A program made the translations under genes and the position numbers. 64,000 nt of DNA from a candidate division TA06 bacterium 32_111 (lineage in GTDB: Bacteria; Hydrothermota; 32-111): contig LGFX01000002.1 of the NCBI GenBank assembly GCA_001508335.1, positions 11,179 through 75,178 on the forward strand, read 5' to 3'. The notes beneath the pieces are model-generated. The model did not search any database, was not told the DNA's origin, and was given only the letters and a program-made list of their open reading frames with translations. Shown here in pieces: positions 1,617 to 25,739 of this stretch; the stretch's first letter is position 1; each line of letters starts with the position of its first letter.

Positions 1617-2966
1617 CTATATCAAAATGAATAAAAATGTAAATATTAAGAAAAGGATAAAAAAAACTTTGCTTATATCTTTAAATTTCAAAGGTTTCTC
1701 TTCACTTAAAAAAGATTTGCCTTTTGTTAAAATCTCTTCCCTATATTCCAAAATATTTTTGTCGTAATCGAGATCACCTTTAGATAACCGATTGAGAAGA
1801 TAATCGAGAAGAGGCAGAAAACCTGGTGTTAATACAAAATTGGAAAGATTTGTATCGAGAGGTAAGGAAATATAAAATTTGTCTTTTGAATAAGAAAGGA
1901 GTTTGTTCCCTCCATCATCCAAAATCAAAGGCTCTCCCGGTATATCGGAAAGTTTTTTATAGTTAAGGCTTTCGAAACCATTCTTTAAAACCTCTTTCAA
2001 GTTAGCATCTTTGAAAATGATTTTTCTTTTGTTATGGTGAACCATTTTATAATCTTTAAAAAAAACTATTCCTTTTTTTATCGCATCGTTAGAGGAAATA
2101 GAAATTTCACCATCAGTAACTTCATATCCCAAAGTCTTTAAAGCTATTTGCAAAATCTTTTCCCCAACAAGATCCTTTATCCTTTTGTTTTTAATATAAA
2201 CAGTTTTTGGAAAACTTATAGAGTCTGTCAAAACCTTTATAAAACTTAAAGAATCAAAATCAGGTGAGAAAAAATTTATACCTCTTTTTAGAAAAATTTT
2301 TACCTCTTTTCCATCTGTTTTTAAAAGAGCAACTTTTTCATCTTTTGAAAATATTTTAAGTTCAGGTAGAATATCAACGATAAGGATATCGAAATCATTT
2401 TCCACCTTCACAAAATCAAAATCGTCCCTGAACCTATCATAGTTCCTATCTGAAATAAAAACTTTCTTCATAGATGGAGAATTTATCCTGTTAATCAAAC
2501 TAACAAAATTTCTTACAACTTCATCCTTTTCTAAAAGTTCTCCACTGAAAACTTTTTCCTTTTTAAAAGGGTATTCTATTCTTCCTTTGTTATCATAAAT
2601 AACGATATTATCGTAATTGAACTCTTTTTTGTATTCAAAAATCATACTGTCCAACTTTTCGGATTTGAGATTCAACAAGGGAGTGTTATCTATGAATATA
2701 AAAAGATATTCAACATTCTTTGAACCGATGTAAGGTTTTGATAAAAATAGTGTTAAAAAGGAAAATGATAAGACAAAAAAAATTATTTTTAAAATTTTAA
2801 GGATCAGGGTTGAACCCTTTTTTAAGGTTGATTTTTCACTCTCTTCGAAAAGATCGATGTAAGGATAAAATTTTACCTTTTTGAACTTTTTTGAAAAAAA
2901 TAGAATTAAAAGGAAAATTGGAAGAAGAAAAAAAAGGATCAAATTAAAATCTCTATAGAAAAACAT
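1617..2966 (-). CDS. hypothetical membrane protein (N-terminal TM helices), located downstream of the DUF58 gene
   Basis: ORF 1617..3017. The likely start is the internal Met at 2966 (MFFYRDFNLILFFLLPIFLLILFF), which is preceded by a good SD (AGGAGAAAGA-ATG). It overlaps the DUF58 stop by 14 nt, suggesting coupling. Confidence 0.5.
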   Translation of the reverse strand: MFFYRDFNLILFFLLPIFLLILFFSKKFKKVKFYPYIDLFEESEKSTLKKGSTLILKILKIIFFVLSFSFLTLFLSKPYIGSKNVEYLFIFIDNTPLLNLKSEKLDSMIFEYKKEFNYDNIVIYDNKGRIEYPFKKEKVFSGELLEKDEVVRNFVSLINRINSPSMKKVFISDRNYDRFRDDFDFVKVENDFDILIVDILPELKIFSKDEKVALLKTDGKEVKIFLKRGINFFSPDFDSLSFIKVLTDSISFPKTVYIKNKRIKDLVGEKILQIALKTLGYEVTDGEISISSNDAIKKGIVFFKDYKMVHHNKRKIIFKDANLKEVLKNGFESLNYKKLSDIPGEPLILDDGGNKLLSYSKDKFYISLPLDTNLSNFVLTPGFLPLLDYLLNRLSKGDLDYDKNILEYREEILTKGKSFLSEEKPLKFKDISKVFFILFLIFTFLFILI

Positions 2967-3813
2967 TCTTTCTCCTAAAAAAGAAGTTTGAAAGTGGTTT
3001 TTCAAAACCATCCTCAATCATTATGTGGTTGTAATCAATCCCGTTTTCATAGGAATACTTTTTTATACTCTCATTTCTATCTCTCAAAATTTTCATCCTA
3101 TCTGAAAACGAATCGAAATAAAGGGTCTTTCCACTTTCCATATCTTTCAAATAGACATTTTCAAAATTATTTTTTTCAAACTCCTGTTTACTTTGTAGAT
3201 GGAAAACTATTGAGTCATTTTTGAAAACTCTGTATATCGATAAAGTTTTCATCATATCTTCAAGATTTTCGCCAAAATCGGTTATAAATATAACAAAAGT
3301 AGATCTTTTAACCTTTGGTAAAATATCCAGTAAAACTTTTGCTCCTTTAGTTTCACCATCAGGTTTTATCGTTTCAAGATCCTTGTAAAGATGGGAAAGT
3401 AGGTTCTGCTTTTTTGAAGGTTTTTGAAAAACTTTTAACCTATCACTGTAAAAAACATAACCGAAAGAATCGTTCTGTTTTTTTGCAATAAGAGCGAAAA
3501 TGAAAACTAAAGTTTTTGCATATTCGAACTTGTTTGCAAATCGCATAGATTTTGAACAGTCAAGAAAAATATAAATATCAGTGTCCGACTCACCCTCATT
3601 TTCCCTTACAAAAAGTTTTTCACTCCTTAAAAAAACTTTCCAATCTATCCTTTTAAAATCGTCTCCCTGAATGTATTCCCTGTATTCTGAAAATTCAGAT
3701 GAAAAACCTTTGTATGGAGTTTTGTGTATACCTGAAAAGTACCCTTTCAAAATGTATTTTGATCTTAAAAAAAGATTTTCGATTTTAAAAATTTCTGAAT
3801 AATTTTTATCCAT
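2953..3813 (-). CDS. DUF58 family protein (vWA-like; usually a partner of MoxR AAA ATPases)
   Basis: The ORF has the motif EYREYIQGDDFKRIDWKVFLRSEKLFVRE, which matches the DUF58 signature (Y..GDD.R.IDWK..AR). Confidence 0.65.
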   Translation of the reverse strand: MDKNYSEIFKIENLFLRSKYILKGYFSGIHKTPYKGFSSEFSEYREYIQGDDFKRIDWKVFLRSEKLFVRENEGESDTDIYIFLDCSKSMRFANKFEYAKTLVFIFALIAKKQNDSFGYVFYSDRLKVFQKPSKKQNLLSHLYKDLETIKPDGETKGAKVLLDILPKVKRSTFVIFITDFGENLEDMMKTLSIYRVFKNDSIVFHLQSKQEFEKNNFENVYLKDMESGKTLYFDSFSDRMKILRDRNESIKKYSYENGIDYNHIMIEDGFEKPLSNFFFRRKNVFL

Positions 3814-3990
3814 CTACTCTGTAAACTTTTAAAATTTCATACTCTAAGAAACTGTTATAGATAAGATTTTTATCTTTTTCTTCAACTTTAATCAAAATTT
3901 TTGTTACCTTTCATTCCAACTTTTTTTATTCTCTATCTTCGTCCCATTCCTTCCGTCAAAATTCACAACATCTTCCCAGAATCATAAGGG

Positions 3991-4197
3991 TTATAATTCA
4001 ACTCTCTCTGTTAAAAAAGAACCTTGAGAAGAGTTCTTTACCGGAAGAATGTTATACTCTTTTTGTGGATCTTCTTTTTCTCTTATATCCTTAAAATTAA
4101 CTACCCGGTTAAACATTATATAATCTTTATATCTTTCAATTTGGTAGGAGAGAGTCAAATTCGAGATTCTTTCACTAATAAAAACACTTTTATCCAT
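3991..4197 (-). CDS. possible small protein (68 aa) in the 445-bp gap upstream of the DUF58 gene
   Basis: ORF with a plausible SD (AAGGAA-TATT-ATG). No recognisable domain. It could equally be non-coding leader sequence. Confidence 0.2.
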   Translation of the reverse strand: MDKSVFISERISNLTLSYQIERYKDYIMFNRVVNFKDIREKEDPQKEYNILPVKNSSQGSFLTERVEL

Positions 4198-4258
4198 AAT
4201 ATTCCTTGCTTTGAAAATGTGTGGGAATTATAACAAAGATATAAAAATAATTCAACCT

Positions 4259-6034
4259 TTACATTCTGAAGAATTTGTATGTTCTCAAAAGGTTATCGTT
4301 ATCTTTATATATCACAAAGAAAACACCTTTTTTTGAAATATCACCTATATAGTTCTCTCCATTTGAAAGAACTTTTATAGTGTTTCCAAGACAATCTATA
4401 AGTTTTGCAGAATTGGCATTTTCGATGTAAATTTTATCGTTAGAATACAAAATTCTTGTTCCCTTCTCAACCTCTTTCACCTCTACATTTTTTGTGTTGT
4501 TTTCAACAGTTCTCAAGGTTGTGAAAGTTAGATCATATTTAAAAAATTTTGTAAAAGTCACATTTATTAAGGCATTAAGATTTCTAGAATCCAGATATTC
4601 AAATGGAAATCCAAAAAATACTGATCTGTGTGTTGTGGCTATATTGTTAACACCAACTATTACTGATGCTTTGGGTAAACCAAGGTAATAGTTTACATTT
4701 ACAAAAGTGTCTCTTGGAAATGGATAAACTTCATCAACATTTGATTTAGTTTGTTCAATTTGTTCAATTACCGCAGTGTATTCATTCGAAGCATAGATTG
4801 AGAATTTATCTGCTGAAAAGGAAACATCATCGTAACTGCTTGATCTGTAATCAACCCACATATAGTAGGAGAGAAATGGAAATTCATCTTTCTGAGAATT
4901 TACTCCCGGGACTCCATAAGATTGGGCAAGGTTCTCTCCGGAAACTATAATATTCCCCCCAAAAGTAAGATACCTTTGAAGATTGAATGTATCATCTGGA
5001 AGTATAAAAGGTTCACCCATTTCTCCAGTATATAAAATAACTGTTGTGAACTTTGATAGAAAATCGTAATTTGGATAAGACTCTGTATTTTTCAAATTCA
5101 AGTAGGTATAATCGATTTTATTCTCATCGAGTACTTTTAAAAGATCAAGAGTTCCTTTTTCTTCAAGTCCGTTATCATCAAGAACAAGTGTTCTACCTAT
5201 ACCAAAGAATTTTAAAATATCCCTGAGGTAACTGGTTCTCATTAGAATATTTTTTGTTGAATCAGGTATAGATTTTATTCCTTGGAGTGGACAGGAGTAT
5301 GCACTGAAATCTGTTGTAGACATTACAGTTCTTCCGGGGAAATATAAAATTCCTTTACTTTCAGGAGGTGTATATGCTGTTGCTGTTGATCTGTAAAGTT
5401 TTCCTTTTTCTTCAAAAACAAAAAATGGGAAGTAGTAAGGCTCTCCAAGTCCGTGGAAGTTTCCAAGATTATCAATAGAATAATCTGGAGGAGTTCCAGC
5501 AGGATAAAGGAATTTGTATTGTCTGCAAAATGTGGAAAGTGTATCAGTGAAAATAGTCTCAATGTATGAGTACTGTGAACCACCATTGTAAAAAAGATAA
5601 TTGTTGAAATACTGGTTTAGAAATTCACTATCATAGTTATTCAAAAAATCAGCTATATTGTTCCCTTCGATGTAAACACATCCACCATAATCAAGATAGT
5701 TTTTCAAATTTTCTATATCCTCTGGAGATAAAATATTGGGAGAAACAGGTCTGTGTCCACAAACTATAAAAACAGCACCATATTCAAGAATATCTGGATA
5801 TGAAGGCAGTGGGTATCCAACTCTTAGATTGTTTGAATCAACTGAAAAACCAAGAAGAGAGAAAGATTGCAATAGGTTCTCTTCGTAACCTATTTGAACT
5901 TGAACATTATCTGGATCTGGAAGTTTAAGCCCACTATCATTATCTAAAACGAATATTTTTATTCCAACAAAATTTTGTGAAAATAATAGAAGACTAAACA
6001 GTAAAAATATAATCACTAAGAAGACTCTTTTCAT
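4259..6034 (-). CDS. secreted protein with a T9SS-type C-terminal sorting-domain-like tail
   Basis: ORF 4259..6130. The likely start is the Met at 6034 (MKRVFLVIIFLLFSLLLFSQ signal peptide) with SD GGGGGAGGT. The C-terminus (KLIDCLGNTIKVL...GVFFVIYKDNDNLLRTYKFFRM) resembles a Por_Secre_tail domain. Confidence 0.55.
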   Translation of the reverse strand: MKRVFLVIIFLLFSLLLFSQNFVGIKIFVLDNDSGLKLPDPDNVQVQIGYEENLLQSFSLLGFSVDSNNLRVGYPLPSYPDILEYGAVFIVCGHRPVSPNILSPEDIENLKNYLDYGGCVYIEGNNIADFLNNYDSEFLNQYFNNYLFYNGGSQYSYIETIFTDTLSTFCRQYKFLYPAGTPPDYSIDNLGNFHGLGEPYYFPFFVFEEKGKLYRSTATAYTPPESKGILYFPGRTVMSTTDFSAYSCPLQGIKSIPDSTKNILMRTSYLRDILKFFGIGRTLVLDDNGLEEKGTLDLLKVLDENKIDYTYLNLKNTESYPNYDFLSKFTTVILYTGEMGEPFILPDDTFNLQRYLTFGGNIIVSGENLAQSYGVPGVNSQKDEFPFLSYYMWVDYRSSSYDDVSFSADKFSIYASNEYTAVIEQIEQTKSNVDEVYPFPRDTFVNVNYYLGLPKASVIVGVNNIATTHRSVFFGFPFEYLDSRNLNALINVTFTKFFKYDLTFTTLRTVENNTKNVEVKEVEKGTRILYSNDKIYIENANSAKLIDCLGNTIKVLSNGENYIGDISKKGVFFVIYKDNDNLLRTYKFFRM

Positions 6035-6153
6035 GAAGACCTCCCCCTTTTTTTTAATTGTATAAAAAAATTTTCTTGTGTCAACCGAAAATTTAAAAAA
6101 TAGGTATTGACTTTTTGTAAAAAAATACATATAATTTTACAAAAGGAGGAAAT

Positions 6154-9100
6154 ATGAAAAAGGTTTTAAGTTTAACTTTTTTACTTTTCTTTCTTTCCAT
6201 CTTTCCATACAGGTTGAACCTTGAAAATGATAAAAAAAGTTTTGAAGTTCAGTTTAAACCTTTCGGTAAAAAGTTCATTTTCAACTATGATAAGAATTTT
6301 CTTTTGATACATCAAAAGGATATAGAAATTGAAAAGTTAAAGTTTTTAACACTATCTTTGGGATACCAATTCATAGATGTTGTAAACGATGATCCTTCCT
6401 GTGCTAAAGTAAAAAATATTATAGACTCCATTAAAAGTATAAAAAAAGTTACCGCTATAATACTTATAGGTGATGAAAATAGGATAAATCCATACAGAGG
6501 TTTTTTCAATCCTTACACTTTAAAAAGTTTCCCTTCAGATCTATACTTTTCAAATCCTTTTGTGGATTCCTCTTTTGTAATAATCTCAAGGATACCAGTT
6601 TCAAATCAGGAACAGTTTGACATTTTTGTTGAAAAGTTGAAAAATTTCCTTTCAGATAGTTCAAATTTTGAATTCGTTTTCACAGCACCTTTTTACGACA
6701 ACAACAAAGACTCCACTGAAGATTACCTATACTTTACATATCCATATTTTATAAACAGAGTTTTGAAAGGAAAAATTTATGGTGAGACCAACTCTCCCTT
6801 TCCAAAATACACATACACATACGAAAAATTACCTGACTCTTTACTCTTCCCCTATTACAACTGGATATACGAATTGAGCAGTTTAAACTTAAAGGACAAA
6901 AATTTTATATTCACATACAGGGGGCATGGGAATCCAATATCTTCCGTTATGCCTGATTTTTCTTTAAACAATATTCAATATTTGAATTTTTCAAAAAATG
7001 GGATATTTCTATTCTTCTCCTGTCTTATGGGAAATTTCGATAAACTGATATCAGGTTACGAAAGATCTTTTTCAGAATCACTTTTAGTTTCCGAAAAGAA
7101 CGCTATTCTCACCATTTCCTCATCATCAGAAACATTTTACCAGTACAACAACTATATGATGAACAAATTTTTCGATTTTTTAGATGACAACTCTTTCAAA
7201 CTTGAAACAACTGAAAAGGAAACATTATTTTTAGACCTTTACAGAAAACTTATTTTCTCTTTTATGAACTATGCCGGGTACAACGATTATTCAGTTTCAC
7301 AGGTTCTCTCATACAATATTTTCGGTTTTCCAATTTTGAATCTTAAAAAAAATCCATCTTCAAAACCTTTCTCTTTTAAAGAGAGTATAGACATATCTGA
7401 CTCTATTTTAACAATAGAAATTTTAAGACCCTGTAAAATCAATATCTTTTCAAAGGAGAGAATTATAGATACCTTCAATTTTAACAACGAAACAACATTC
7501 TATTACAAACTTTTCAACATAAAACCAAACTCTTTCTATTACATATCTTCATATTTAAATGGAGTTCTCTTCGTTGATTCGTTTTTTGTTAAAAACGATA
7601 TACTCTCTATTGACACTTTTTTCTTTTCAGATAACTCTGGTAACTCTAACCGACTTATAGAGGAGGGAGAACCTATCCAAATATTTTTTAAAACAAATAA
7701 AAACTCTTATTCCAATGTTGATATTTTTTCAACCGATTGTGAGATAGTTGAAGGGGTGATTCTCGATGGAGAGTTTTTTAAAACAACTGTAAAAACTTTA
7801 AAGGGTGCTTATAATTTAAAGTTAACAATTTCAATAGATTCTTCAAACTTCTATTTTGTTTTTCCTGTAAACAGGTTCAGAATTGTTATCGATTCTATGA
7901 ACTGTCAAGAAACATCGATATTTTACAAGGATGAGGATTATCAGTTTGGAGTATCTGTTTCCTCTTTCGGTATTTTTCCACAGGAAAAATTAAAGTTAAA
8001 ATTCATAGAGAAAAACTATTCTGTCAGTATTGATAGTATAATATTAAATACTCCCTTTGAACATAATATTTTATGGAACTACTTTAGATTTTTTGCCGAT
8101 ACAAACTTTATAAAAGTTGTATACTCGAATGGATTTATTTATGATACTATAACCTATAAAGTTTTTACAACAAAAAGACATTCACTCTTTTTATATGATC
8201 CTTTGAACAACTATCAGAATTCAGATTTTGTTTCATTTTTAAAAGATTCTTTGGATATATCTTTAACCTTATCAGATAAAATTGATTCAACCTTAACCTA
8301 TTCTTCCTACATTTTCTCCTTTGGTCTCTATCCAAAATTACACCATATAACCTCCGAAGAATCTAATTTAATAGAGAATTTAGCATCAAGAAATGTCCCC
8401 CTTCTTGTTGAGGGTGGAGATGTTTTTGGTTATGATAGAGAGGGAATAAGGATAATGGAATTATTCAATATTAACAAATCTTTCGATGGGAATACCCTTT
8501 ACAAAGGAACGGTTTTAAATCTAACTCCCCTTAACATTGATCTTCTTTACGATACAACCTCAAACTACATGGATTACTATGAGACTCCACAGCCTTTGCT
8601 TTCATTTTCAAACAGATATTATGGTTCAATAAAAAATAACAGGATAGCCCAATCTCCACTTCTTAAATATTTTAAACACATTGATTTGAATCTTTTGTAT
8701 TACTTCTACACTATCTTTCTTTTAGATTTTGAGGAAGGTGTATCCTTCAAGGAAACTATTGATATTTCAACGAATCAGAGTTTAGAAATTTTCTCAACAG
8801 TTAAAAATCCACAGATTCTTTTATGTGAATTTCCAGATAACCTTATAGATTCAGTAAAATTTGAAGATGGAAGGGCAATAAAAGGTTTAGGGAAAAAATT
8901 TGTTAAAATTTTTGTTAAAAGGAACTCCCCGCCTTTCCAGACGAAAATATTTTTTTCAACCGGTTTCAAAGAATACCCTTTATACTTAAAATACACTCCT
9001 TACATTCAGACAAAAAACAAGAAGTTTAAAAAGAAGGAAAACATCTCAGAGTTAAAAGATAAAATCTATTTTGACAAGATTGGAAGAAGGGTTTTCAAAA

Positions 9101-9165
9101 ATCAACTTAAAAGTTTAAACATCTATTTTACAGAGGATAAAAAACTTTTGATTTTAAAAAAATAG
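6154..9165 (+). CDS. large secreted gingipain-like (peptidase C25, clan CD) cysteine-peptidase candidate with a T9SS-type C-terminal domain
   Basis: Signal peptide MKKVLSLTFLLFFLSIFP. His-Gly and Cys motifs (FTYRGHGNPISS ... IFLFFSCLMGNFD) are spaced about 40 aa apart, as in caspase-fold C25/C11 peptidases. The C-terminal KIYFDKIGRRVFKNQ...LLILKK resembles a Por_Secre_tail. Confidence 0.5.
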   Translation: MKKVLSLTFLLFFLSIFPYRLNLENDKKSFEVQFKPFGKKFIFNYDKNFLLIHQKDIEIEKLKFLTLSLGYQFIDVVNDDPSCAKVKNIIDSIKSIKKVTAIILIGDENRINPYRGFFNPYTLKSFPSDLYFSNPFVDSSFVIISRIPVSNQEQFDIFVEKLKNFLSDSSNFEFVFTAPFYDNNKDSTEDYLYFTYPYFINRVLKGKIYGETNSPFPKYTYTYEKLPDSLLFPYYNWIYELSSLNLKDKNFIFTYRGHGNPISSVMPDFSLNNIQYLNFSKNGIFLFFSCLMGNFDKLISGYERSFSESLLVSEKNAILTISSSSETFYQYNNYMMNKFFDFLDDNSFKLETTEKETLFLDLYRKLIFSFMNYAGYNDYSVSQVLSYNIFGFPILNLKKNPSSKPFSFKESIDISDSILTIEILRPCKINIFSKERIIDTFNFNNETTFYYKLFNIKPNSFYYISSYLNGVLFVDSFFVKNDILSIDTFFFSDNSGNSNRLIEEGEPIQIFFKTNKNSYSNVDIFSTDCEIVEGVILDGEFFKTTVKTLKGAYNLKLTISIDSSNFYFVFPVNRFRIVIDSMNCQETSIFYKDEDYQFGVSVSSFGIFPQEKLKLKFIEKNYSVSIDSIILNTPFEHNILWNYFRFFADTNFIKVVYSNGFIYDTITYKVFTTKRHSLFLYDPLNNYQNSDFVSFLKDSLDISLTLSDKIDSTLTYSSYIFSFGLYPKLHHITSEESNLIENLASRNVPLLVEGGDVFGYDREGIRIMELFNINKSFDGNTLYKGTVLNLTPLNIDLLYDTTSNYMDYYETPQPLLSFSNRYYGSIKNNRIAQSPLLKYFKHIDLNLLYYFYTIFLLDFEEGVSFKETIDISTNQSLEIFSTVKNPQILLCEFPDNLIDSVKFEDGRAIKGLGKKFVKIFVKRNSPPFQTKIFFSTGFKEYPLYLKYTPYIQTKNKKFKKKENISELKDKIYFDKIGRRVFKNQLKSLNIYFTEDKKLLILKK

Positions 9166-9200
9166 TTTGACTTTAAACTTTCAATTTTTATAATTCTTTT

Positions 9201-10241
9201 ATGATGTTAATTTTTCTAATTCTTTTTTTTCTAACCTCTGAAAACATCTCAGGATACACTATAAAAAAAAGTGATCTTGTTACCTATTATGATACATTAT
9301 CCTTGGAAAGTAAAGTTTCACAACTTTTTATAGTTTACACAAACAACTTCAATTTTTCAAATTATTATCCTGGAGGGGTAATACCTTCAAAAAATCTTTT
9401 AAAGAGTATTTACTATAAAAAAATTCCTTTTGAGAACCTTTTAAAAGATTTTCCAATTCCACCTTTTGTTTGTATAGATCAGGAAGGAGGGAAAGTTGAT
9501 AGGTTATCATTTATAGAAAAAACTCCTTCTTTGAATTCGATATTCCATAACTATGAAAAAAGGGAGGAAATTTTAAAGATAATGGTTTTAAATGAGAAAA
9601 AACTTGGAATAAATTTAAACCTTTCACCTGTTCTCGATCTTTCATACCAGAAAAACTCGATGATGAGAAGAACGGATAGAAACATTCTTTCAACAACCGA
9701 TTCTATTAAAGATTTCATAGATACTTACATATCTTTACACAAAAGCAAAAAAATTCTAAACTGCATAAAACATTTCCCTGGTTATGGAGAAACATTTGAT
9801 AACTCCGATGTAGTGATACCAAAATATAAAGGAGATAAAAAACTTTTTGAAGAGAATTTGGATCTTTTTTACCATTTTTTTGATAAGGTTTCATTCGTTA
9901 TGGTTGCAAACATAGTTTACCCATTTCTCGATTCTGTTCCTGCGGTAAGGTCAAAAAATGTTGTAAAACTTGTTAGGGATAAAAATGAAAAGATTGTCAT
10001 TGTAGCGGATGATATAGCAGCAAAATCAAACAAAAACCCTTACTTGGTTCTGAAAGAATCTTTTAAAAGTGGGGTTGATATCTTTATACTTATGGATGAT
10101 ACACTTTTCGAATTTATGGTAGATTCACTTTCTTTCTGGATTTCAAAAGGAGAAATTGAAGAAAAGGAACTTAATGAAAAACTTTTCAGAATATTTCTTA
10201 AAAAAGAGTATCTTTTTAATACGCTCAAAAAGAAAAGTTAA
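9201..10241 (+). CDS. nagZ: glycoside hydrolase family 3 N-terminal domain protein (NagZ-like beta-N-acetylhexosaminidase), with N-terminal signal/TM
   Basis: Motifs PFVCIDQEGGKVDRL, NLNLSPVLDL and KHFPGYGETFDNSD match the GH3/NagZ catalytic region. Confidence 0.6.
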   Translation: MMLIFLILFFLTSENISGYTIKKSDLVTYYDTLSLESKVSQLFIVYTNNFNFSNYYPGGVIPSKNLLKSIYYKKIPFENLLKDFPIPPFVCIDQEGGKVDRLSFIEKTPSLNSIFHNYEKREEILKIMVLNEKKLGINLNLSPVLDLSYQKNSMMRRTDRNILSTTDSIKDFIDTYISLHKSKKILNCIKHFPGYGETFDNSDVVIPKYKGDKKLFEENLDLFYHFFDKVSFVMVANIVYPFLDSVPAVRSKNVVKLVRDKNEKIVIVADDIAAKSNKNPYLVLKESFKSGVDIFILMDDTLFEFMVDSLSFWISKGEIEEKELNEKLFRIFLKKEYLFNTLKKKS

Positions 10242-10939
10242 ATTCCAACTATTGAAACATCAGGAACAAACTGAGTCATTATATCTCTAAACTTTTTCAA
10301 CTCTTCAGGTTTGTAGGGAACTACACCGGTAAAATCATCATTCAAAGTTTTCCAATTCCTAAACTGCTGGATAACATACTTTTTTGCACCTGTTATCAAA
10401 ACACCTATCTCTCTAACATCCTCAAGAGTTACAAGTTGTGGAACTATAGTTGTTCTGAACTCATAATCAATCTTTGAGTTCAAAAGTATTTCAACAGAAC
10501 TTTTTATCCTTTCAAAATCAATATTTACTCCACATGCTACAACATACTTTGAAGGTGATGTTTTTATATCCATCGCTACGTAATCAATAAGATTTTCGGA
10601 AAGAAGTTTCTTTAGAATTTGTGGATTGTAACCGTTAGTATCAACTTTTACTGGAAGTTTAAATTTTTCTCTTAAGTTTGAAATGAAACCTATAATATCT
10701 TCACTTAAAAGTGGTTCACCACCTGTTATAGATATACCTTCGATGAAATTTTTTCTCTCATCAATAAGAGAAAATAACCTCTCCTCCGTTATAGTCTGTA
10801 AAGAGTCAAAATCATCAACAAGTTCTTTGTTATGACAGAAAGGACATCTGAAGTTACATCCAGCCAAAAAAATGGTTGATGAAACTTTGTCTGGATAATC
10901 AAGTGTGGTAATACCTTGAAAACCTTTTACTTGAACCAT
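10238..10939 (-). CDS. nrdG: anaerobic ribonucleoside-triphosphate reductase activating protein (radical SAM)
   Basis: CNFRCPFCHN radical-SAM cysteine motif; position immediately downstream of nrdD. Confidence 0.85.
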   Translation of the reverse strand: MVQVKGFQGITTLDYPDKVSSTIFLAGCNFRCPFCHNKELVDDFDSLQTITEERLFSLIDERKNFIEGISITGGEPLLSEDIIGFISNLREKFKLPVKVDTNGYNPQILKKLLSENLIDYVAMDIKTSPSKYVVACGVNIDFERIKSSVEILLNSKIDYEFRTTIVPQLVTLEDVREIGVLITGAKKYVIQQFRNWKTLNDDFTGVVPYKPEELKKFRDIMTQFVPDVSIVGI

Positions 10940-11140: not shown

Positions 11141-13285
11141 CTATTCTCCTTTTTCAACATATATTTCAACGCCAAACTTTTCGAGTTCTTGGGGTGAATG
11201 ATCGTAAGGGCAGAATTTATGTTCTCCCGGGATATAACCATGAACAGGACATATTGAAAATGTTGGGGTTATTGTGAAATAAGGAAGATGAAAATTCTCA
11301 GCGATCTTCTTAACGAGTTTTTTACATGCACTGATAGAGTAAATCCTTTCTCCGATAAAACCATGTAAAACTGTTCCTCCGGTGTATTGACACTGAAGTT
11401 CATCCTGTAATTTCAGAGCCTCAAAAAGATCATCGGTGAAACCCACTGGAAGTTGAGTTGAGTTTGTATAGTAGGGAACATCTTTACCTGCTGTTATTAT
11501 ATCTGGATAACGTTTTTTATCCTCTTTAGCCAACCTGTAAGATGTTCCTTCTGCTGGTGATGCCTCAAGGTTGTAAAGATTTCCAGTTTCATCTGTGAAC
11601 TTTTCAAGTTTTTCTCTCATAAATTTTAAAGTTTCAAGAGCAAACTCTCTTCCATTTTTTTGCCCTATATTCTCTCCAACAAGCATCAGTGCTGCTTCAT
11701 TCATCCCCACAAGTCCAATAGTTGAAAAATGGTTTGCCCAATATTTCCCATTCATTTTTTTTACATCTTCAAGATAAACTTTGGAGTAAGGATAAAGGTT
11801 ATCCTCTGTAAACTTTTCAAGAATCTTTCTCTTTATTTCAAGTGATTCTTTAGCTAATTGCATCATCCTTTCAAGTTTTGTGAAAAATTCTGATTTGCTT
11901 TTACTGTTGTATGCGATCCTTGGAATATTTATGGTAACAACACCAACTGAACCTGTCATAGGATTTGCTCCAAAAAGACCACCACTCCTTTTTGGATGTT
12001 TATCGATTTTTTCTTCATTAACATTATTTTTGTTTGCGAGTAAGTTCAGTTGTATCTTTTCACTCCTTTTTTTCAACTCCCTGTTATCAAGTCTCAACCT
12101 ACAACACATACTCCTTGCATCTGAAGGATCCATATCAGAGTTTATAAAGTTACTGAAATATGGAATGCCATACTTCGCCGTCATCTCCCATATCTTTTCA
12201 AGGTTTGGATTGTTCCAATCGAAATTCTTTGTGATATTGTATGTCGGAATTGGAAATGTGAAAATTCTACCCTTAGCATCACCTTCCATCATCACCTCGG
12301 CAAAAGCCTTGTTGAACATATCCATTTCCTGCTGGAACTCTTTGTATGTCTCGTTCATCCTCTTTCCACCTATTATTACTCTTTCATCCTTCAAAGTTTC
12401 CGGACAAACAAGATCCATTGTAACATTGGTGAAAGGTGTTTGAAATCCAACCCTTGTTGGGACATTAACGTTGAAAACGAACTCCTGCATAGCCTGTTTA
12501 ACATCATCGTATGTTAACTCATCATACCTTATGAATGGGGAAAGGTATGTATCAAAATTTGAAAATGCCTGTGCCCCTGCTGCCTCTCCCTGTAATGTGT
12601 AAAAAAAGTTTACTATCTGTCCTAATGCTGTCCTGAAATGTTTCGCTGGTTTTGATTCTATCTTTCCAGTTACTCCACCAAGACCTTTTAAAAGTAAAAG
12701 TTCAAGGTCCCATCCACAACAGTAAACTGAAAGCATCCCAAGATCATGTATGTGTAGATCACCTTCCCTATGTGCATTTGCAACCTCTTTTGGATAAACT
12801 TTTTCAAGCCAATAGAGTGCCGATATCGTCGATGAAATATGGTTGTTCAAACCTTGCAAAGAGTAAGACATATTCGAATTCTCGTTAACCCTCCAGTCCA
12901 ATTTTTCAATGTATTCATCCATCAAATCTATACTATCCTTTATCAACTCTTTGCTTTTTCTTAACTGGTTATGCTGCTCTCTGTAAAGTATATAGGCTTT
13001 CGCAGTTTTTGCGTGCCCAGATTCTATGAGCATCTTTTCAACAAGATCCTGAACATTCTCAACAGTTGGTATCCTTCCATCCTTATACAAAACCTCAAGA
13101 ACAGCAACTATCTGGTTTGTAATCTTTTTTGCTGGTTGTATATCATCTCCACCAACAGCCTTTACAGCTTTAAAGATAGCTTCAGTTATCTTGTTTTCAT
13201 CGAATTTTTCTACTCTACCATCTCTTTTTCTTATATATTCGACTTTTGACACTCCTCCTCCATTTTTTTTAGAAAATATTATCAC
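11141..13285 (-). CDS. nrdD: anaerobic ribonucleoside-triphosphate reductase (class III), catalytic polypeptide ending at a TAG before the glycyl-radical domain
   Basis: 714-aa ORF with ATP-cone start (KVEYIRKRDGRVEKFDENKI) and the long NrdD core. The likely true start is the GTG at 13252, preceded by GGAGGAGGA. The C-terminus has a Zn-site-like CPVH...CPYDH and then stops at the TAG at 11141-11143. Confidence 0.9.
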   Translation of the reverse strand: MIIFSKKNGGGVSKVEYIRKRDGRVEKFDENKITEAIFKAVKAVGGDDIQPAKKITNQIVAVLEVLYKDGRIPTVENVQDLVEKMLIESGHAKTAKAYILYREQHNQLRKSKELIKDSIDLMDEYIEKLDWRVNENSNMSYSLQGLNNHISSTISALYWLEKVYPKEVANAHREGDLHIHDLGMLSVYCCGWDLELLLLKGLGGVTGKIESKPAKHFRTALGQIVNFFYTLQGEAAGAQAFSNFDTYLSPFIRYDELTYDDVKQAMQEFVFNVNVPTRVGFQTPFTNVTMDLVCPETLKDERVIIGGKRMNETYKEFQQEMDMFNKAFAEVMMEGDAKGRIFTFPIPTYNITKNFDWNNPNLEKIWEMTAKYGIPYFSNFINSDMDPSDARSMCCRLRLDNRELKKRSEKIQLNLLANKNNVNEEKIDKHPKRSGGLFGANPMTGSVGVVTINIPRIAYNSKSKSEFFTKLERMMQLAKESLEIKRKILEKFTEDNLYPYSKVYLEDVKKMNGKYWANHFSTIGLVGMNEAALMLVGENIGQKNGREFALETLKFMREKLEKFTDETGNLYNLEASPAEGTSYRLAKEDKKRYPDIITAGKDVPYYTNSTQLPVGFTDDLFEALKLQDELQCQYTGGTVLHGFIGERIYSISACKKLVKKIAENFHLPYFTITPTFSICPVHGYIPGEHKFCPYDHSPQELEKFGVEIYVEKGE

Positions 13286-25000: not shown

Positions 25001-25739
25001 CAGACAGGGTAACTATAAAAAAGCTATGGAATATTACACAAGATCACTCGATTATGCAAAGAAAAACAATAACCTTTCAGATCAGGCACTCTTCAATTTA
25101 AGAATAGGTTTAATACATTATGAAAAACAGGAATACGAAAAAGCCTTAAAAAACTATTTCGTCTCTTTAGATCTTAACAGAAAAACAGGAAACAGAAGAA
25201 ATGAGGCGGTAACTCTGGGTAACATTGGAACAGTTTACAACGAGATGGGTGAAACTGAGAAAGCTTTAAATTATCTTTTTAAAGCTTTACAGATAGATAA
25301 AGAGATCAACAATCTTGAAAATGAATCTATAATTTTAGGAAATATCGCAAACATATATGGTGCTAAAAATGATTGGGAATCATCCTTGAAATATTATAAA
25401 GAGGCATTGGATGTTGATAGAAAAATAGGAAGTAAATGGTCAGAAGCGATAGATCTTGGAAATATAGGACAACTTTTCAAATTACAAAAAAAATATAAGG
25501 ATGCTGACGAGTATTTTAAAAAATGTATAAAGATAATCAGGGAGATGAATGCGAGATACCCTTTAAGTCATTTTTTGTATCACAGAGCACTCCTTCTTTT
25601 TGAAATGAAAAATTTTCCTCTGTCTTTAAAACTCACCAAAGAATCTTTAAAAATTGCAAAGGAGTTAAAAAAGGAAAACTTGATAAAAAGTTGTGAAGAA
25701 CTGATAAAAAAAATGGAGGATAAGAATGTCAAAATGTGA
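22071..25739 (+). CDS. multidomain signalling protein: two class III nucleotidyl-cyclase-homology domains, a P-loop STAND/AAA NTPase (GESGTGKT), and C-terminal TPR repeats
   Basis: Cyclase-like motifs FSGDAFTAIFF and GLDYGTTYSGFIGS...VIGDIVNTSARI. Walker A NIFGESGTGKTRISF. About 10 TPR-like repeats in the C-terminal 450 aa. The start is uncertain because no SD precedes the first ATG. Confidence 0.6.
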   Translation: MRNLIPSFIVEKINLNLTKGNFFGYVISGDIENFTPMVENLMEKEKEGAEILGTILNKTLGNVTDTIYKNDGFITTFSGDAFTAIFFEDKSPTEILQVSKQILEIFSNLNKKSNIKLNIRLGISSGFIEWRIFNNDKSIYYFKGNGINSAIRIQHTDESSVIKVDVSLIDKIDRNLVKKIKGGYFIVDESKIEIPKNNCEKSQIIPFKSLNSKFFPEIISDLKIEGEFRKVIPIFINFPFDLEDEKLNILLKTLCENTKKYNAYLNKVEFGDKGGMILLIFGAPYTQEDMVERAILCSTDIFNHLNENHIKVSVGLDYGTTYSGFIGSSFWKEYTVIGDIVNTSARIATTNSCKVMVSERLACETKRVIFSDQVELSLKGKDKKIKVLSVKGITQKKSFDFISPFIERKSVSEKIEKFLKTLEDKKVAGLVNIFGESGTGKTRISFELFSKLGYEIFYTTADPILKEPLMAIKNLFSNIVGFNTYDKESKRRESIEKFSKSFEKFYDIEYERLYSFLLYFFNHEETYLIKNLPAREKLEGTFFTLKNILLKNIENKKAVFIFDDFMWVDQETVDFVNYLLRDQYEFKSVPFIFLYREENDNIRRLKKLGCELIVTKLENFTFENVRTFLQNFFKTDVSKELLNTLWQKSEGNPLFLEQLSVHLVNNGLLTNRNGVISLKESNYEIPSNIDRLILSRLDSLSAITRDGVQKASVIGKEFEILLLSFLVEKKDLDRILSESEKNKIITLLSEKSASFRHILLYEITYRMQFKKNVERLHKKIGELYESLFKDNLINYYETLYYHFSKGNVKNKAIFYLKKSIEKDISSFSNENAIKLIEKYLEYRINKDERIYFTIKKAEILSHIGRYKDSIKEYKKILKEKKLKLKTKSLVLKGIGNSLWAMGEYKKALNQYKESLKIVKNLRDQKEISEIYEKIGLVYYNKGDYSKSKEMFNTALKFAKRDVEKRFSIYSNLGLLLYRQGNYKKAMEYYTRSLDYAKKNNNLSDQALFNLRIGLIHYEKQEYEKALKNYFVSLDLNRKTGNRRNEAVTLGNIGTVYNEMGETEKALNYLFKALQIDKEINNLENESIILGNIANIYGAKNDWESSLKYYKEALDVDRKIGSKWSEAIDLGNIGQLFKLQKKYKDADEYFKKCIKIIREMNARYPLSHFLYHRALLLFEMKNFPLSLKLTKESLKIAKELKKENLIKSCEELIKKMEDKNVKM

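What the first reader, a model, noticed from the sequence alone, without database searches (positions are those of the whole stretch)
4259..9165. Divergent pair of large secreted proteins with T9SS-type C-terminal domains, one a gingipain-like clan-CD peptidase
Both proteins have classic signal peptides and share a 118-bp divergent promoter region (6035-6153). The 1003-aa protein has His-Gly and Cys motifs (RGHGNPISS and FLFFSCLMG) with caspase/gingipain-like spacing. Both C-termini resemble the Por_Secre_tail sorting domain (for example KIYFDKIGRRVFKNQLKSLNIYFTEDKKLLILKK). Type IX secretion cargo with C25 peptidase domains is a Bacteroidota/FCB trait. This contrasts with the otherwise Thermotogae-like gene content, so it suggests either an unusual lineage or horizontal acquisition of a protease virulence-like module.
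Basis: partly seen in the sequence, partly recalled or inferred. Interest (0 to 1): 0.6.

Follow-up and report, generated by a model that had tools for sequence, protein, structure and literature searches.

The report
Gingipain-type protease gene pair, WOR-3
Two back-to-back genes in an uncultured WOR-3/TA06 bacterium encode exported proteins, a gingipain-family (C25) cysteine protease homologue and a protein with a type IX secretion tail. Both fit this lineage, show no sign of foreign acquisition, and the protease is already auto-annotated as C25 in public databases.

Summary
Both ORFs, the quoted motifs and the 119-bp divergent spacer are real.

**The 1003-aa protein** is a Peptidase_C25 homologue (64 bits against a cut-off of 23). 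Its His258/Cys290 pair is invariant in 15 homologues and aligns with the catalytic pair of Kgp. It is 100% identical to XD76_0260 of 'candidate division TA06 bacterium 32_111'. Cluster members and relatives are already named 'C25 family cysteine peptidase' or 'Gingipain domain-containing protein'. It has no C25 prodomain and gives no Por_Secre_tail or PorU HMM hit. Only a conserved 34-aa tail carries CTD-like motifs (D-x-x-G-R, I-Y-F, terminal Lys). More distant homologues have about 70 extra residues before this tail.

**The 591-aa protein** has two tandem class-I-glutamine-amidotransferase-like (DUF4159/ThuA/GIFT-like) domains. It ends in a seven-strand C-terminal sandwich that aligns with HMM-positive T9SS CTDs of paralogues, one of them from the same organism.

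The two proteins share one unannotated α/β 'EGGD' domain that recurs in many CTD-bearing secreted proteases.

Relatives are WOR-3, not Thermotogae. GC3 and synteny argue against horizontal transfer. Related genomes carry a porU/porV-like operon, but I could not show T9SS machinery in this genome.

Verdict: an ordinary new member of a known kind, with two small curiosities.

The parts
6154..9165 (+). Gene for the 1003-aa exported multidomain C25-family cysteine peptidase homologue (= XD76_0260 of TA06 bacterium 32_111)
   Evidence: ORF. Peptidase_C25 64.1 bits against GA 23. 100% identical to P0145. Full-length family of about 8 50%-identity clusters.
6154..6213 (+). Putative Sec signal peptide (MKKVLSLTFLLFFLSIFPYR); cleavage site uncertain
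   Evidence: Sequence. Predicted helix 2-14 followed by a low-confidence stretch. No predictor was run.
6292..7353 (+). C25 (gingipain-type) catalytic domain, residues ~47-400, with no N-terminal prodomain
   Evidence: Pfam stretch 95-348 matches model positions 62-329 of 374. No Propeptide_C25 hit in any family member. The AF2 model is alpha/beta here but has low to moderate confidence.
6925..6927 (+). His258 codon (CAT), putative catalytic His in YRGHGN
   Evidence: Invariant in 15 sequences. Aligns with the His of Kgp 'TAHGS' and of other C25 and PorU-like proteins.
7021..7023 (+). Cys290 codon (TGT), putative catalytic Cys in FFSCL
   Evidence: Invariant in 15 sequences. Aligns with the second Cys of Kgp 'NCCIT' and the Cys of 'YACLTG'/'YSCITG' in other C25 and PorU-like proteins.
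7354..8181 (+). Array of Ig-like beta-sandwich domains, residues ~401-676
   Evidence: AF2 gives all-beta structure with pLDDT about 75-90. Foldseek matches only tandem-Ig proteins such as titin, alpha-2-macroglobulin and S-layer proteins.
8182..8733 (+). Unannotated alpha/beta accessory domain ('EGGD' domain, ...LVEGGDVFGYD...), residues 677-860, homologous to both halves of the 591-aa protein
   Evidence: AF2 beta-alpha-beta pattern, pLDDT 80-90. No Pfam, NCBIfam or PDB-sequence hit. Found in at least 19 other secreted proteins, and 7 of 9 scanned carry a T9SS CTD. hhalign against the 591-aa domains gives E 3e-9 and 2e-6; reversed controls give E 0.1-0.4.
8734..9003 (+). Seven-strand beta-sandwich domain, residues ~861-950
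   Evidence: AF2 strands 868-947, pLDDT 81-88.
9004..9060 (+). Lys-rich, predicted disordered linker (residues 951-969). It occupies the position where distant homologues have about 70 extra residues
   Evidence: pLDDT about 30. Alignment of C-termini.
9061..9162 (+). Conserved 34-aa C-terminal tail KIYFDKIGRRVFKNQLKSLNIYFTEDKKLLILKK: a possible remnant of a T9SS CTD
   Evidence: Y972, G977, F992 (and Y991, K997 in at least 90%) are conserved across 15 sequences. Three short predicted strands. hhalign to the 591-family CTD gives P 3e-5 to 1e-3. No CTD HMM hit, and the shuffle test is not significant.
6035..6153 (.). 119-bp divergent intergenic region with back-to-back sigma-70-type promoter-like sites (+ 6107-6135; - 6084-6057) and a Shine-Dalgarno sequence for each gene
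   Evidence: Both sites match 11 of 12 and rank in the top 3 for the region. AAGGAGG precedes the ATG at 6154 and GGGGGAGG precedes the ATG at 6034.
4259..6034 (-). Gene for the 591-aa exported protein: signal peptide, two class-I-GATase-like (DUF4159/ThuA/GIFT-like) domains and a T9SS-type CTD
   Evidence: ORF. Homologues and alignment. DUF4159 hit in 12 of 12 members, all weak. AF2 pTM 0.73. Foldseek matches ThuA-like proteins, GATases, IFT52 N-terminal domain and OST48.
5975..6034 (-). Putative signal peptide MKRVFLVIIFLLFSLLLFS followed by Gln20, which is nearly invariant
   Evidence: Sequence. Q20 is conserved in at least 90% of 12 homologues.
5195..5971 (-). GATase-like domain 1 (residues 22-280), with invariant GGCxYxEG
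   Evidence: Invariant columns G117, G118, C119, Y121, E123, G124. hhalign domain 1 against domain 2: probability 97%, E 9e-11. Foldseek.
4535..5194 (-). GATase-like domain 2 (residues 281-500)
   Evidence: hhalign. AF2 and Foldseek.
4262..4471 (-). C-terminal seven-strand beta-sandwich (residues 522-591), a T9SS type-A-CTD homologue
   Evidence: Seven predicted strands 527-590, pLDDT 82-89. D547, G550 and G570 are invariant, and the region aligns with CTDs of P0021-P0023, which hit PF18962 (best 4.5e-9). P0023 scores 38.2 bits on TIGR04183 against a cut-off of 23. Against an HMM of those 3 CTDs, 6 of 2000 shuffles reach the real score. It gives no HMM hit of its own.
9201..10241 (+). Neighbouring GH3 (NagZ-like) gene with its own promoter-like site at 9167-9194. 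Conserved next to the C25 gene in the closer relatives only
   Evidence: Glyco_hydro_3 95.8 bits. Promoter site matches 11 of 12. Synteny in L005 and L002, absent in L008 and L009.

Best explanation
These are two separately transcribed genes of a WOR-3/TA06 bacterium, each encoding a Sec-exported cell-envelope or surface protein. They were inherited vertically.

Gene 1 (6154-9165) encodes a multidomain C25-family (gingipain-type, clan CD) cysteine peptidase homologue. Its order of domains is: signal peptide, catalytic domain with an intact His258/Cys290 dyad and no prodomain, a stalk of Ig-like sandwiches, one alpha/beta 'EGGD' accessory domain, one more sandwich, a Lys-rich linker, and a conserved 34-aa tail. 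I infer that it is an active endopeptidase displayed outside the cytoplasmic membrane. I also infer that its tail is what remains of a T9SS C-terminal sorting domain after loss of about 70 residues. Whether the tail still targets the protein to a T9SS is unknown.

Gene 2 (6034-4259) encodes two tandem copies of the same accessory-domain superfamily (class-I-glutamine-amidotransferase-like fold, DUF4159/ThuA/GIFT-like) followed by a complete seven-strand T9SS-type CTD. It is most likely a T9SS cargo that ends up on the cell surface or outside the cell.

Shown: the ORFs, domain homologies, residue conservation, lineage, synteny and promoter-like sites. Inferred: export, peptidase activity, T9SS dependence and surface location.
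For: C25 membership and the catalytic dyad.

Identity and lineage:
- 100% identity to XD76_0260 of TA06 bacterium 32_111.
- Relatives are labelled WOR-3.
- Taxonomy of these labels.

Vertical inheritance:
- Orthologues at 78-33% identity lie in the same neighbourhood: C25, GH3, NrdG, NrdD, a 315-aa gene and a 628-aa gene.
- GC3 is 0.23-0.29, against 0.23-0.32 for housekeeping genes.
- The best hits outside the family have E about 1e-13 or weaker.

The 591-aa protein:
- The fold model matches ThuA-like proteins, GATases, IFT52 and OST48.
- It contains an internal duplication.
- Its CTD aligns with HMM-positive paralogue CTDs, including XD76_0555 from the same organism.

Shared accessory domain:
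- hhalign links the domain to both halves of the 591-aa protein, with negative reversed controls.
- It occurs in other CTD-bearing C25, C11 and S8 peptidases.

T9SS components in related genomes:
- A PorU-like protein scores 181-216 bits on NF033707.
- It is flanked by a TIGR04183-positive protein and a PorV/PorQ-like protein.
- It lies on the same contig as the orthologous gene pair in two lineages.

Promoters.
Against: - Neither window protein gives any T9SS-CTD HMM hit of its own.
- The 1003-aa tail is too short for the seven-strand sandwich. Deletion and replacement mutants show that an intact CTD fold is needed for secretion (PMC11285876).
- The tail's similarity to CTDs is not significant against shuffles.
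- The window holds no T9SS core gene.
- A PorU-like gene could not be found for this organism.
- The PorU-like and PorV-like hits in relatives are below NCBIfam's curated cut-offs.
- The C25 region of the structure model has low confidence, so the active-site geometry is not verified.
- The gene pairing is not ancient. Distant family members (22-28% identity) have neither the 591-family gene nor GH3 beside them.
Confidence: 0.65

Rival explanations
1. Horizontally acquired Bacteroidota-type protease/virulence module in a non-FCB (Thermotogae-like) genome.
For: C25 domains and T9SS CTDs are best known from Bacteroidota. Reviews describe T9SS as restricted to Bacteroidota or the FCB superphylum (abstracts listed).
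Against: - The organism is TA06 bacterium 32_111, with WOR-3 relatives.
- The full-length family is confined to these lineages, and the best outside hits have E about 1e-13.
- Synteny is conserved down to 33% identity.
- GC and GC3 are the same as housekeeping genes.
- No mobile-element genes flank the pair.
Confidence: 0.04
2. The 1003-aa protein is a PorU-type T9SS sortase (a machine component) rather than a cargo protease.
For: PorU is itself a C25-family protein with a retained, uncleaved CTD (PMC11285876). I could not find a separate PorU-like gene for this organism.
Against: - No hit to NF033707 (PorU) or NF052324 (PorU2) at E<=1 for this protein, or at E<=0.1 for five homologues.
- Relatives that carry the orthologue also carry a distinct 1497-1500-aa PorU-like protein, on the same contig in L002.
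- The catalytic domain is N-terminal here, whereas it sits at residues 504-856 in the PorU-like proteins.
Confidence: 0.06
3. Both proteins are exported by Sec and stay in the periplasm or outer membrane, or are released, without any T9SS. The C-terminal similarities would then be degenerate relics or a different kind of anchor, and the C25 domain may act on envelope proteins. The conserved GH3/NagZ-like neighbour hints at cell-wall turnover.
For: - Neither protein gives a CTD HMM hit.
- The window has no T9SS core gene.
- The 1003-aa tail is only 34 aa.
- GH3 adjacency is conserved in the closer relatives.
Against: - The 591-aa CTD is a well-predicted seven-strand sandwich homologous to HMM-positive CTDs, one of them in the same organism.
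- The accessory domain travels with CTDs in other proteins.
- porU/porV-like operons occur in relatives.
- GH3 has its own promoter-like site and is absent next to distant family members.
Confidence: 0.2
4. The C25-like domain is a catalytically dead scaffold, and the protein is an Ig-rich surface adhesin or S-layer-like protein.
For: - The Pfam score is modest (64 bits) and the domain model has low confidence.
- Most of the chain is Ig-like sandwiches that match S-layer and adhesion proteins.
- There is no prodomain to keep a protease latent.
Against: His258, Cys290, the flanking G257 and N260, and E308 downstream are invariant across sequences down to 22% identity. They align with catalytic residues of Kgp and other C25 proteins. 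Such conservation is not expected in a dead enzyme.
Confidence: 0.05

Closest known systems
Gingipains RgpB/Kgp of Porphyromonas gingivalis (MEROPS family C25, clan CD; Pfam PF01364)
   Same: - The catalytic-domain family is the same, above Pfam's threshold.
- The His...Cys dyad is in the same order with 32-residue spacing and aligns with Kgp's H and C.
- Beta-sandwich domains follow the catalytic domain.
- The protein is exported.
   Different: - No ~200-aa N-terminal prodomain: no PF08126 hit.
- No PF03785 hit.
- A much longer Ig stalk plus an alpha/beta accessory domain.
- No full CTD.
- Very low sequence similarity: a family profile against the PDB gives Kgp at E 0.18 only.
- Specificity is unknown.
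PorU, the T9SS C-terminal signal peptidase/sortase (NCBIfam NF033707)
   Same: It is a C25-family domain with the same dyad motif. It occurs in lineages that also have CTD cargo.
   Different: - No NF033707 or NF052324 hit.
- Different domain order.
- Relatives have a separate 1500-aa PorU-like protein in a porU/porV-like operon.
T9SS type A C-terminal sorting domain (TIGR04183 / PF18962 Por_Secre_tail)
   Same: 591-aa protein:
- About 70 aa with seven predicted strands.
- It has the conserved D-x-x-G, G-x-(Y/F)-F and penultimate Lys pattern.
- It is homologous to HMM-positive CTDs of paralogues.

1003-aa protein:
- It has the same three motifs in the same order.
   Different: - Neither protein reaches a reportable HMM score.
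- The 1003-aa tail is only 34 aa with three strands, so it cannot form the 3+4 sandwich described for CTDs (PMC11285876).
DUF4159 (PF13709), ThuA-like and GIFT (GldG/IFT52) domains of the class I glutamine amidotransferase-like fold
   Same: - All 12 members of the 591-aa family hit DUF4159 weakly, and 2 hit IFT52_GIFT.
- Foldseek matches ThuA-like proteins (4jqs, 4e5v), GATase subunits, the IFT52 N-terminal domain (5fms) and OST48, which has tandem domains.
   Different: - The window protein scores below Pfam's threshold (19.6 against 25.9 bits).
- No Cys-His-Glu GATase triad is evident. Only C119 in GGCxYxEG is invariant.
- The 'EGGD' variant in the 1003-aa protein has no Pfam or PDB sequence match at all.

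Membership tests
Peptidase family C25 (Pfam PF01364 / MEROPS C25) | Sequence match above the curated gathering threshold | tested here: met
   64.1 bits against a cut-off of 23, E 1.8e-17, residues 95-348. All 10 members of A1 hit the family. Four of five more distant members also hit it; P0028 does not.
Peptidase family C25 (Pfam PF01364 / MEROPS C25) | Catalytic His then Cys dyad, conserved and aligned with that of gingipains | tested here: met
   H258 and C290 are invariant in 15 sequences. They align with Kgp 'AHG' and the second C of 'NCCIT', and with 'GHG'/'ACLTG' of strong C25 proteins. Spacing is 32 residues.
Peptidase family C25 (Pfam PF01364 / MEROPS C25) | N-terminal prodomain (Propeptide_C25, PF08126), as in gingipains | tested here: not met
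   No PF08126 hit in any family member, although P0037 and P0044 have it. The catalytic domain starts about 25 residues after the signal peptide. This is a feature of gingipains, not of every C25 member.
Peptidase family C25 (Pfam PF01364 / MEROPS C25) | Caspase/gingipain-like alpha/beta fold of the catalytic domain | tested here: inconclusive
Peptidase family C25 (Pfam PF01364 / MEROPS C25) | Arg-X or Lys-X endopeptidase activity | not testable with these tools
   Needs enzyme assays.
T9SS type A CTD cargo (TIGR04183 / PF18962): 1003-aa protein | CTD HMM match at the C-terminus | tested here: not met
   No hit at E<=1, at E<=10 for 10 homologues, or at E<=0.1 for 5 distant homologues.
T9SS type A CTD cargo (TIGR04183 / PF18962): 1003-aa protein | C-terminal 3+4 beta-sandwich of about 60-90 aa with seven strands | tested here: not met
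   After a disordered Lys-rich linker only 34 residues remain, with three short strands. Distant homologues have about 70 more residues here.
T9SS type A CTD cargo (TIGR04183 / PF18962): 1003-aa protein | Conserved motifs: Gly at the beta3-beta4 loop and Lys in the last strand (PMC11285876) | tested here: inconclusive
   D-K-I-G-R, I-Y-F and K997 are conserved. hhalign to the 591-family CTD gives P 3e-5 to 1e-3 over 24-25 columns. HMM against shuffles gives 43-140 of 2000, which is not significant.
T9SS type A CTD cargo (TIGR04183 / PF18962): 591-aa protein | CTD HMM match at the C-terminus | tested here: not met
   The window protein itself gives no hit. Three of 12 homologues hit PF18962 (best 4.5e-9). 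The paralogue P0023 from the same organism scores 38.2 bits on TIGR04183 against a cut-off of 23.
T9SS type A CTD cargo (TIGR04183 / PF18962): 591-aa protein | Seven-strand C-terminal beta-sandwich homologous to recognised CTDs | tested here: met
   Seven predicted strands at 527-590, pLDDT 82-89. The region aligns collinearly with HMM-positive CTDs, with D547, G550 and G570 invariant. Only 6 of 2000 shuffles reach its score against those CTDs. There are weak PDB matches to the C-terminus of endo-beta-N-acetylglucosaminidase HS, 9x1i.
T9SS (machinery present in the genome) | Core genes: sprA/sov, porV, porU, gldK/L/M/N | tested here: inconclusive
   - None in the 64-kb window.
- Relatives have a PorU-like protein (181-216 bits against a cut-off of 420) and a PorV/PorQ-like protein (36 bits against 325), next to a TIGR04183-positive protein.
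- None was recovered for this organism.
- The whole genome could not be scanned.
PorU sortase (NF033707) | Match to the PorU equivalog-domain model | tested here: not met
   No hit at E<=1 for the window protein or at E<=0.1 for 5 homologues. The true PorU-like proteins of relatives score 181-216 bits.
DUF4159 (PF13709) / class I GATase-like fold: 591-aa protein | Pfam gathering threshold | tested here: not met
   19.6 bits against 25.9. All 12 homologues hit weakly, best 1.6e-5.
DUF4159 (PF13709) / class I GATase-like fold: 591-aa protein | Fold similarity to ThuA-like/GATase1/GIFT domains | tested here: met
   Foldseek hits: 4jqs (E 1.6e-6, TMt 0.55), 8rp0 (TMt 0.66), 1i1q, 5fms (IFT52) and 6s7t_G (OST48, tandem domains). 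Model pTM is 0.73.

The most novel reading that the evidence does not exclude
WOR-3/TA06 bacteria may run a divergent T9SS that the literature library I searched does not discuss. Within it, this C25 family would have shrunk its sorting domain to a 34-residue remnant that is still conserved. The remnant keeps the beta3-beta4 loop Gly motif and the last two strands. It would be either a minimal T9SS signal or a repurposed anchor. In addition, the unannotated alpha/beta 'EGGD' domain may be a new cargo-associated module. It is shared by the two divergent genes and by many CTD-bearing C25, C11 and S8 proteases, and it is remotely related to DUF4159/GIFT domains. It might serve surface attachment, glycan binding or control of prodomain-less proteases.
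Probability: 0.2. Interest if true: 0.5.

Novelty: new member of a known kind. Interest (0 to 1): 0.3.

Why it matters
- The finding corrects the lineage call: the window is WOR-3/TA06, not Thermotogae-like. That removes the horizontal-transfer story.
- It adds a small, phylum-restricted subfamily of prodomain-less C25 peptidase homologues.
- It gives sequence-level evidence that WOR-3/TA06 genomes encode T9SS-type cargo and porU/porV-like operons. A 2025 survey of 181 WOR-3 genomes does not contain the words secretion, peptidase, protease or gingipain.
- The unannotated 'EGGD' accessory domain and the truncated tail are modest leads for people who curate protein families or study T9SS signals.
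- Nothing here changes current understanding of C25 peptidases or of T9SS.

Tried and rejected
- Foldseek of the whole 1003-aa model against the PDB returned only tandem-Ig proteins and said nothing about the catalytic or accessory domains.
- A first profile-profile comparison of the two protein families found nothing, and so did BLASTP. Homology of the accessory domain appeared only after the profile was enriched with outside members.
- The accessory domain is not a second C25-like domain: hhalign E 0.2-0.5.
- HMM tests of the 1003-aa tail against CTD profiles were not significant.
- The PDB sequence search with the accessory-domain profile found nothing credible. The PorV-like 319-aa protein had no PDB sequence match.
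- Attempts to find a PorU-like gene of TA06 bacterium 32_111 all failed, so absence or presence remains open. I tried a word-index search, a genome-contig scan, a cluster look-up of the closest low-GC candidate L014 and a metagenome scan.
- Literature searches for WOR-3, TA06 or Caldifarciminota together with T9SS returned nothing relevant.
- I considered a functional link of the pair to the DUF58/BatA-like genes downstream of the 591-aa gene but did not adopt it. The arrangement differs in L005 and is absent in L002.
- I considered the divergent pair as an ancient module and rejected it. Distant orthologues lack both the 591-family and GH3 neighbours.

Full report
**Observation**

The window has a 1003-codon ORF at 6154..9165 (+) and a divergent ORF at 4259..6130 (-).

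The minus-strand gene really starts at the ATG at 6034, giving 591 aa (MKRVF...). Three things show this. All 11 homologues begin there. A GGAGG lies 5 nt upstream. The gene's best promoter-like site falls inside the longer reading frame.

The spacer 6035-6153 is 119 bp. It contains two of the three best sigma-70-type matches in 3700-10400, each matching 11 of 12 positions. One is on the + strand at 6107-6135 (TTGACT-17-TATAAT). The other is on the - strand at 6084-6057 (TTGACA-16-TACAAT). The third best match, at 9167-9194, precedes the next gene, a GH3 gene.

The quoted motifs are present. His258 is codon 6925-6927 and Cys290 is codon 7021-7023, 32 residues apart. The quoted C-terminal string is the last 34 residues of the 1003-aa protein.

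Both N-termini look like Sec signal peptides on inspection: a Lys/Arg-containing start, a 14-17-residue hydrophobic stretch and no lipobox Cys. No predictor was available.

**Which organism**

The 1003-aa protein is 100% identical to P0145, which is XD76_0260 of 'candidate division TA06 bacterium 32_111' (KUK51458.1). That MAG comes from the Schrader Bluff oil-reservoir metagenomes (PMC4725000).

A 99%-identical copy lies on a 721-kb contig of GCA_030017465.1, with the same gene order as the window.

Orthologues at 78-61% identity are labelled candidate division WOR-3. NCBI now lists that label (taxid 2052148) under the phylum Caldifarciminota.

A 2025 survey treats 'B3-TA06' as a genus of WOR-3 (PMC12542636).

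The rest of the window is ordinary housekeeping and holds no T9SS core gene. It includes:
- NrdD/NrdG, RimM, TrmD, RNase HII and PFK.
- ZnuABC, SHMT, IspG, MurA-like and RecA/RecX.
- A che cluster and an MglA-like GTPase.

The 'Thermotogae-like' reading is therefore not supported.

**The 1003-aa protein**

*C25 membership.* Pfam gives Peptidase_C25 at 64.1 bits against a cut-off of 23, over residues 95-348. All 10 close and mid-distance homologues hit the family. Four of five distant ones also hit it.

*Catalytic residues.* In a 15-sequence alignment reaching 22% identity, G257, H258, N260, F288, C290, L291, E308 and S309 are invariant. A family profile aligns 'YRGHGN' with Kgp 'YTAHGS', and 'FSCL' with the second Cys of Kgp 'NCCIT'; that PDB match is weak (E 0.18). 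A MAFFT alignment puts the same residues in column with 'GHG/ACLTG' of strong C25 proteins and 'AHG/YSCITG' of PorU-like proteins.

*What is missing.* There is no Propeptide_C25 hit and no Peptidase_C25_C hit. No NCBIfam model matches, including PorU and PorU2.

*Family size.* The full-length family is tiny: about eight full-length 50%-identity clusters plus fragments among 1.84 billion representatives. The next hits are only generic C25 domains at E about 1e-13 or weaker.

*Structure model.* AlphaFold2 on 15 sequences gave pLDDT 70 and pTM 0.47. It shows these regions:

| Residues | Predicted feature | Confidence |
|---|---|---|
| 47-400 | Alpha/beta region (C25 domain) | Low to moderate |
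| ~401-676 | Run of beta-sandwiches | Good |
| 677-860 | Alpha/beta domain | Good |
| 861-950 | Seven-strand sandwich | Good |
| 951-969 | Disordered Lys-rich linker | Very low |
| 970-1000 | Three short strands | Moderate |

Foldseek with the whole model found only tandem-Ig proteins.

**The tail of the 1003-aa protein**

No CTD model matches this protein or any homologue.

The last 34 residues are nevertheless conserved: Y972, G977 and F992 in all 15 sequences, and Y991 and K997 in at least 90%. They carry D-x-x-G-R, then I-Y-F, then a terminal Lys-rich strand.

This is the order of the beta3-beta4 loop Gly motif and the C-terminal motif described for T9SS CTDs (PMC11285876).

Evidence on homology is mixed:
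- Profile-profile alignment to the CTD of the 591-aa family gives P between 3e-5 and 1e-3 over 24-25 columns.
- An HMM test against shuffled tails is not significant, at 43-140 of 2000.

More distant homologues (P0009, P0010, P0024, P0026, P0028, P0029) have about 70 extra residues just before the same tail. In the window's clade a Lys-rich linker sits there instead.

My reading, which is an inference, is that an ancestral full CTD-like domain was truncated in this clade. I cannot tell whether the remnant still works as a signal. Published work indicates that an intact sandwich is needed, although the HBP35 signal was mapped to the last 22 residues (PMC11285876).

**The 591-aa protein**

*Sequence hits.* Pfam gives only a sub-threshold DUF4159 hit, 19.6 bits against 25.9. 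All 12 family members hit DUF4159 weakly, two hit IFT52_GIFT, and three hit Por_Secre_tail (best 4.5e-9).

*A paralogue in the same organism.* One of those three is P0023, XD76_0555 of the same organism as the window. It is a 34%-identical paralogue that scores 38.2 bits on TIGR04183 against a cut-off of 23. So this genome does encode at least one HMM-positive T9SS type A CTD protein.

*The CTD.* The window protein aligns collinearly with these CTDs, with D547, G550 and G570 invariant. Against an HMM built from only the three positive CTDs, 6 of 2000 shuffles reach its score. The structure model (pLDDT 71, pTM 0.73) shows seven strands at residues 527-590 with pLDDT 82-89.

*The two main domains.* Foldseek matches the body of the protein to ThuA-like proteins, GATase subunits, the IFT52 N-terminal GIFT domain and OST48, which has tandem domains. 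The two halves are homologous to each other (hhalign probability 97%, E 9e-11).

*Gln after the signal peptide.* Gln20, right after the signal peptide, is nearly invariant. From my own knowledge, this recalls the Bacteroidetes 'Q-rule' for signal peptidase I substrates. I did not test it.

**A link between the two genes**

The alpha/beta domain at residues 677-860 of the C25 protein has no Pfam, NCBIfam or PDB-sequence match.

The family profile picked the same domain up in at least 19 other large secreted proteins. Its conserved motif is roughly Y.a.F.clGiYp.Nh.Ls..Ea..l..Yl..GG.lYmEGGD.W.YD.

Nine of those proteins were scanned. They include C25, C11 and S8 peptidases and BNR, CARDB and laminin-G proteins. 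Seven of the nine end in Por_Secre_tail or FlgD_ig CTDs.

Once the profile was enriched with these outside members, it matched both halves of the 591-aa protein:
- Domain 1: probability 96%, E 3e-9, 167 columns.
- Domain 2: probability 90%, E 2e-6, 178 columns.
- A profile of outside members only: E 2e-10.
- Reversed-sequence controls: E 0.1-0.4.

So the divergent genes share one domain superfamily, with one copy in the C25 protein and two in its neighbour. That domain typically travels with T9SS CTDs.

**Is the pair a module?**

Only within a narrow clade.

| Relative | Identity to window C25 protein | Arrangement |
|---|---|---|
| L005 | 50% | Same divergent arrangement, followed by GH3 |
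| L002 | 33% | C25(+), GH3(+), then the 589-aa homologue (-), inside the same wider synteny (NrdG, NrdD, 315-aa, 628-aa genes) |
| L009, L008 | 28%, 22% | C25 gene next to TPR, PolyA_pol and Rce1-like genes; no 591-family gene and no GH3 |

**T9SS machinery**

None is in the window.

In L002 a 1497-aa protein lies 5 kb from the orthologous C25 gene. It scores 155 bits on Peptidase_C25 and 181 bits on NF033707 (PorU; cut-off 420), and has a weak Por_Secre_tail.

Its WOR-3 orthologues score 216 bits on NF033707. They sit in an operon between a 472-aa protein that passes TIGR04183 (28.4 bits against 23) and a 319-aa PorV/PorQ-like protein (PorV2 36 bits, E 3e-9; below cut-off).

The PorU-like protein is widespread in WOR-3 MAGs.

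I could not recover one for TA06 bacterium 32_111. These searches are incomplete, so this is not evidence of absence.

**Horizontal transfer**

- GC of the two genes is 0.29-0.32, against 0.315 for the window.
- GC3 is 0.23-0.29, against 0.23-0.32 for NrdD, PFK, RecA and IspG.
- No mobile-element genes flank the pair.
- Orthologues track the lineage.

**Verdict**

It is wrong on lineage and horizontal transfer. The CTD on the protease itself is at best a remnant.

The protein is already in public databases, where members of its 90% cluster and its relatives are named 'Gingipain domain-containing protein' and 'C25 family cysteine peptidase'.

It is a new member of a known kind. The side interest is modest: the truncated tail, the unannotated accessory domain, and T9SS-like genes in WOR-3. 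The last topic was absent from the literature I could search.

Noticed in passing
window 8182-8733 (residues 677-860 of the 1003-aa protein); also window 4535-5971 (-): An alpha/beta domain with the motif ...GiYp.Nh.Ls..Ea..l..Yl..GG.lYmEGGD.W.YD. It has no Pfam, NCBIfam or PDB-sequence match. It recurs in at least 19 other secreted proteins, including C25, C11 and S8 peptidases, and most of those scanned have T9SS CTDs. It is remotely homologous to both halves of the neighbouring 591-aa protein.
   Followed up: yes
window 9201-10241 (+): A GH3/NagZ-like beta-N-acetylhexosaminidase gene with a hydrophobic N-terminus. It follows the C25 gene after 35 bp and has its own 11-of-12 promoter-like site (9167-9194). 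It stays adjacent to the C25 gene in relatives down to 33% identity but not in the most distant ones.
   Followed up: partly
window 1617-3813 (-): A DUF58 (VWA-like) gene and a BatA-like N-terminal transmembrane protein lie downstream of the 591-aa gene. This is a Bat/MoxR-type pair with no MoxR ATPase next to it. DUF4159 domains are often found with such genes, but the arrangement is not conserved in L002.
   Followed up: partly
L010 6613-13456; L002 1-6297; L014 4568-11465: WOR-3 relatives carry an operon with three genes in order. First is a 472-aa T9SS type A CTD protein. Second is a 1500-aa PorU-like C25 protein (181-216 bits on NF033707, below the 420 cut-off). Third is a 319-aa PorV/PorQ-like protein. 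Glycosyltransferase and Wzy_C-like genes lie nearby. This suggests a divergent T9SS attachment complex in this phylum.
   Followed up: partly
window 5975-5977 (-), residue Gln20 of the 591-aa protein: A Gln immediately after the predicted signal peptide is nearly invariant in the family. It also occurs in unrelated carriers of the accessory domain (P0063 and P0075: ...LSAQNVFVWDG). This is reminiscent of the Bacteroidetes 'Q-rule' (pyroglutamate N-termini).
   Followed up: no
window 55257-64000 (-): A cluster of cheW, cheB, cheD and cheR with TPR proteins, an Arf/MglA-like small GTPase, a STAND/AAA protein and a T2SSE-type ATPase. This suggests chemosensory control of a pilus or gliding-type motility system rather than flagella.
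   Followed up: no
window 11141-13285 (-); L002 16972-19252; L005 14784-17061: The anaerobic ribonucleotide reductase NrdD is a single 714-aa ORF in the window. In two relatives it is called as a 702-703-aa protein plus a separate 55-aa C-terminal NRDD fragment.
   Followed up: no
window 22071-25739 (+): A 1222-aa protein that combines an adenylate/guanylate cyclase domain, an AAA_16 (STAND-like) ATPase domain and a long TPR array.
   Followed up: no
L014 (DYMB01000007.1): A 28% GC MAG contig labelled 'Acetofilamentum sp.', a Bacteroidaceae genus. It carries the WOR-3-type PorU-like operon at 63% identity to WOR-3 sequences, so the taxonomic label is probably wrong.
   Followed up: no
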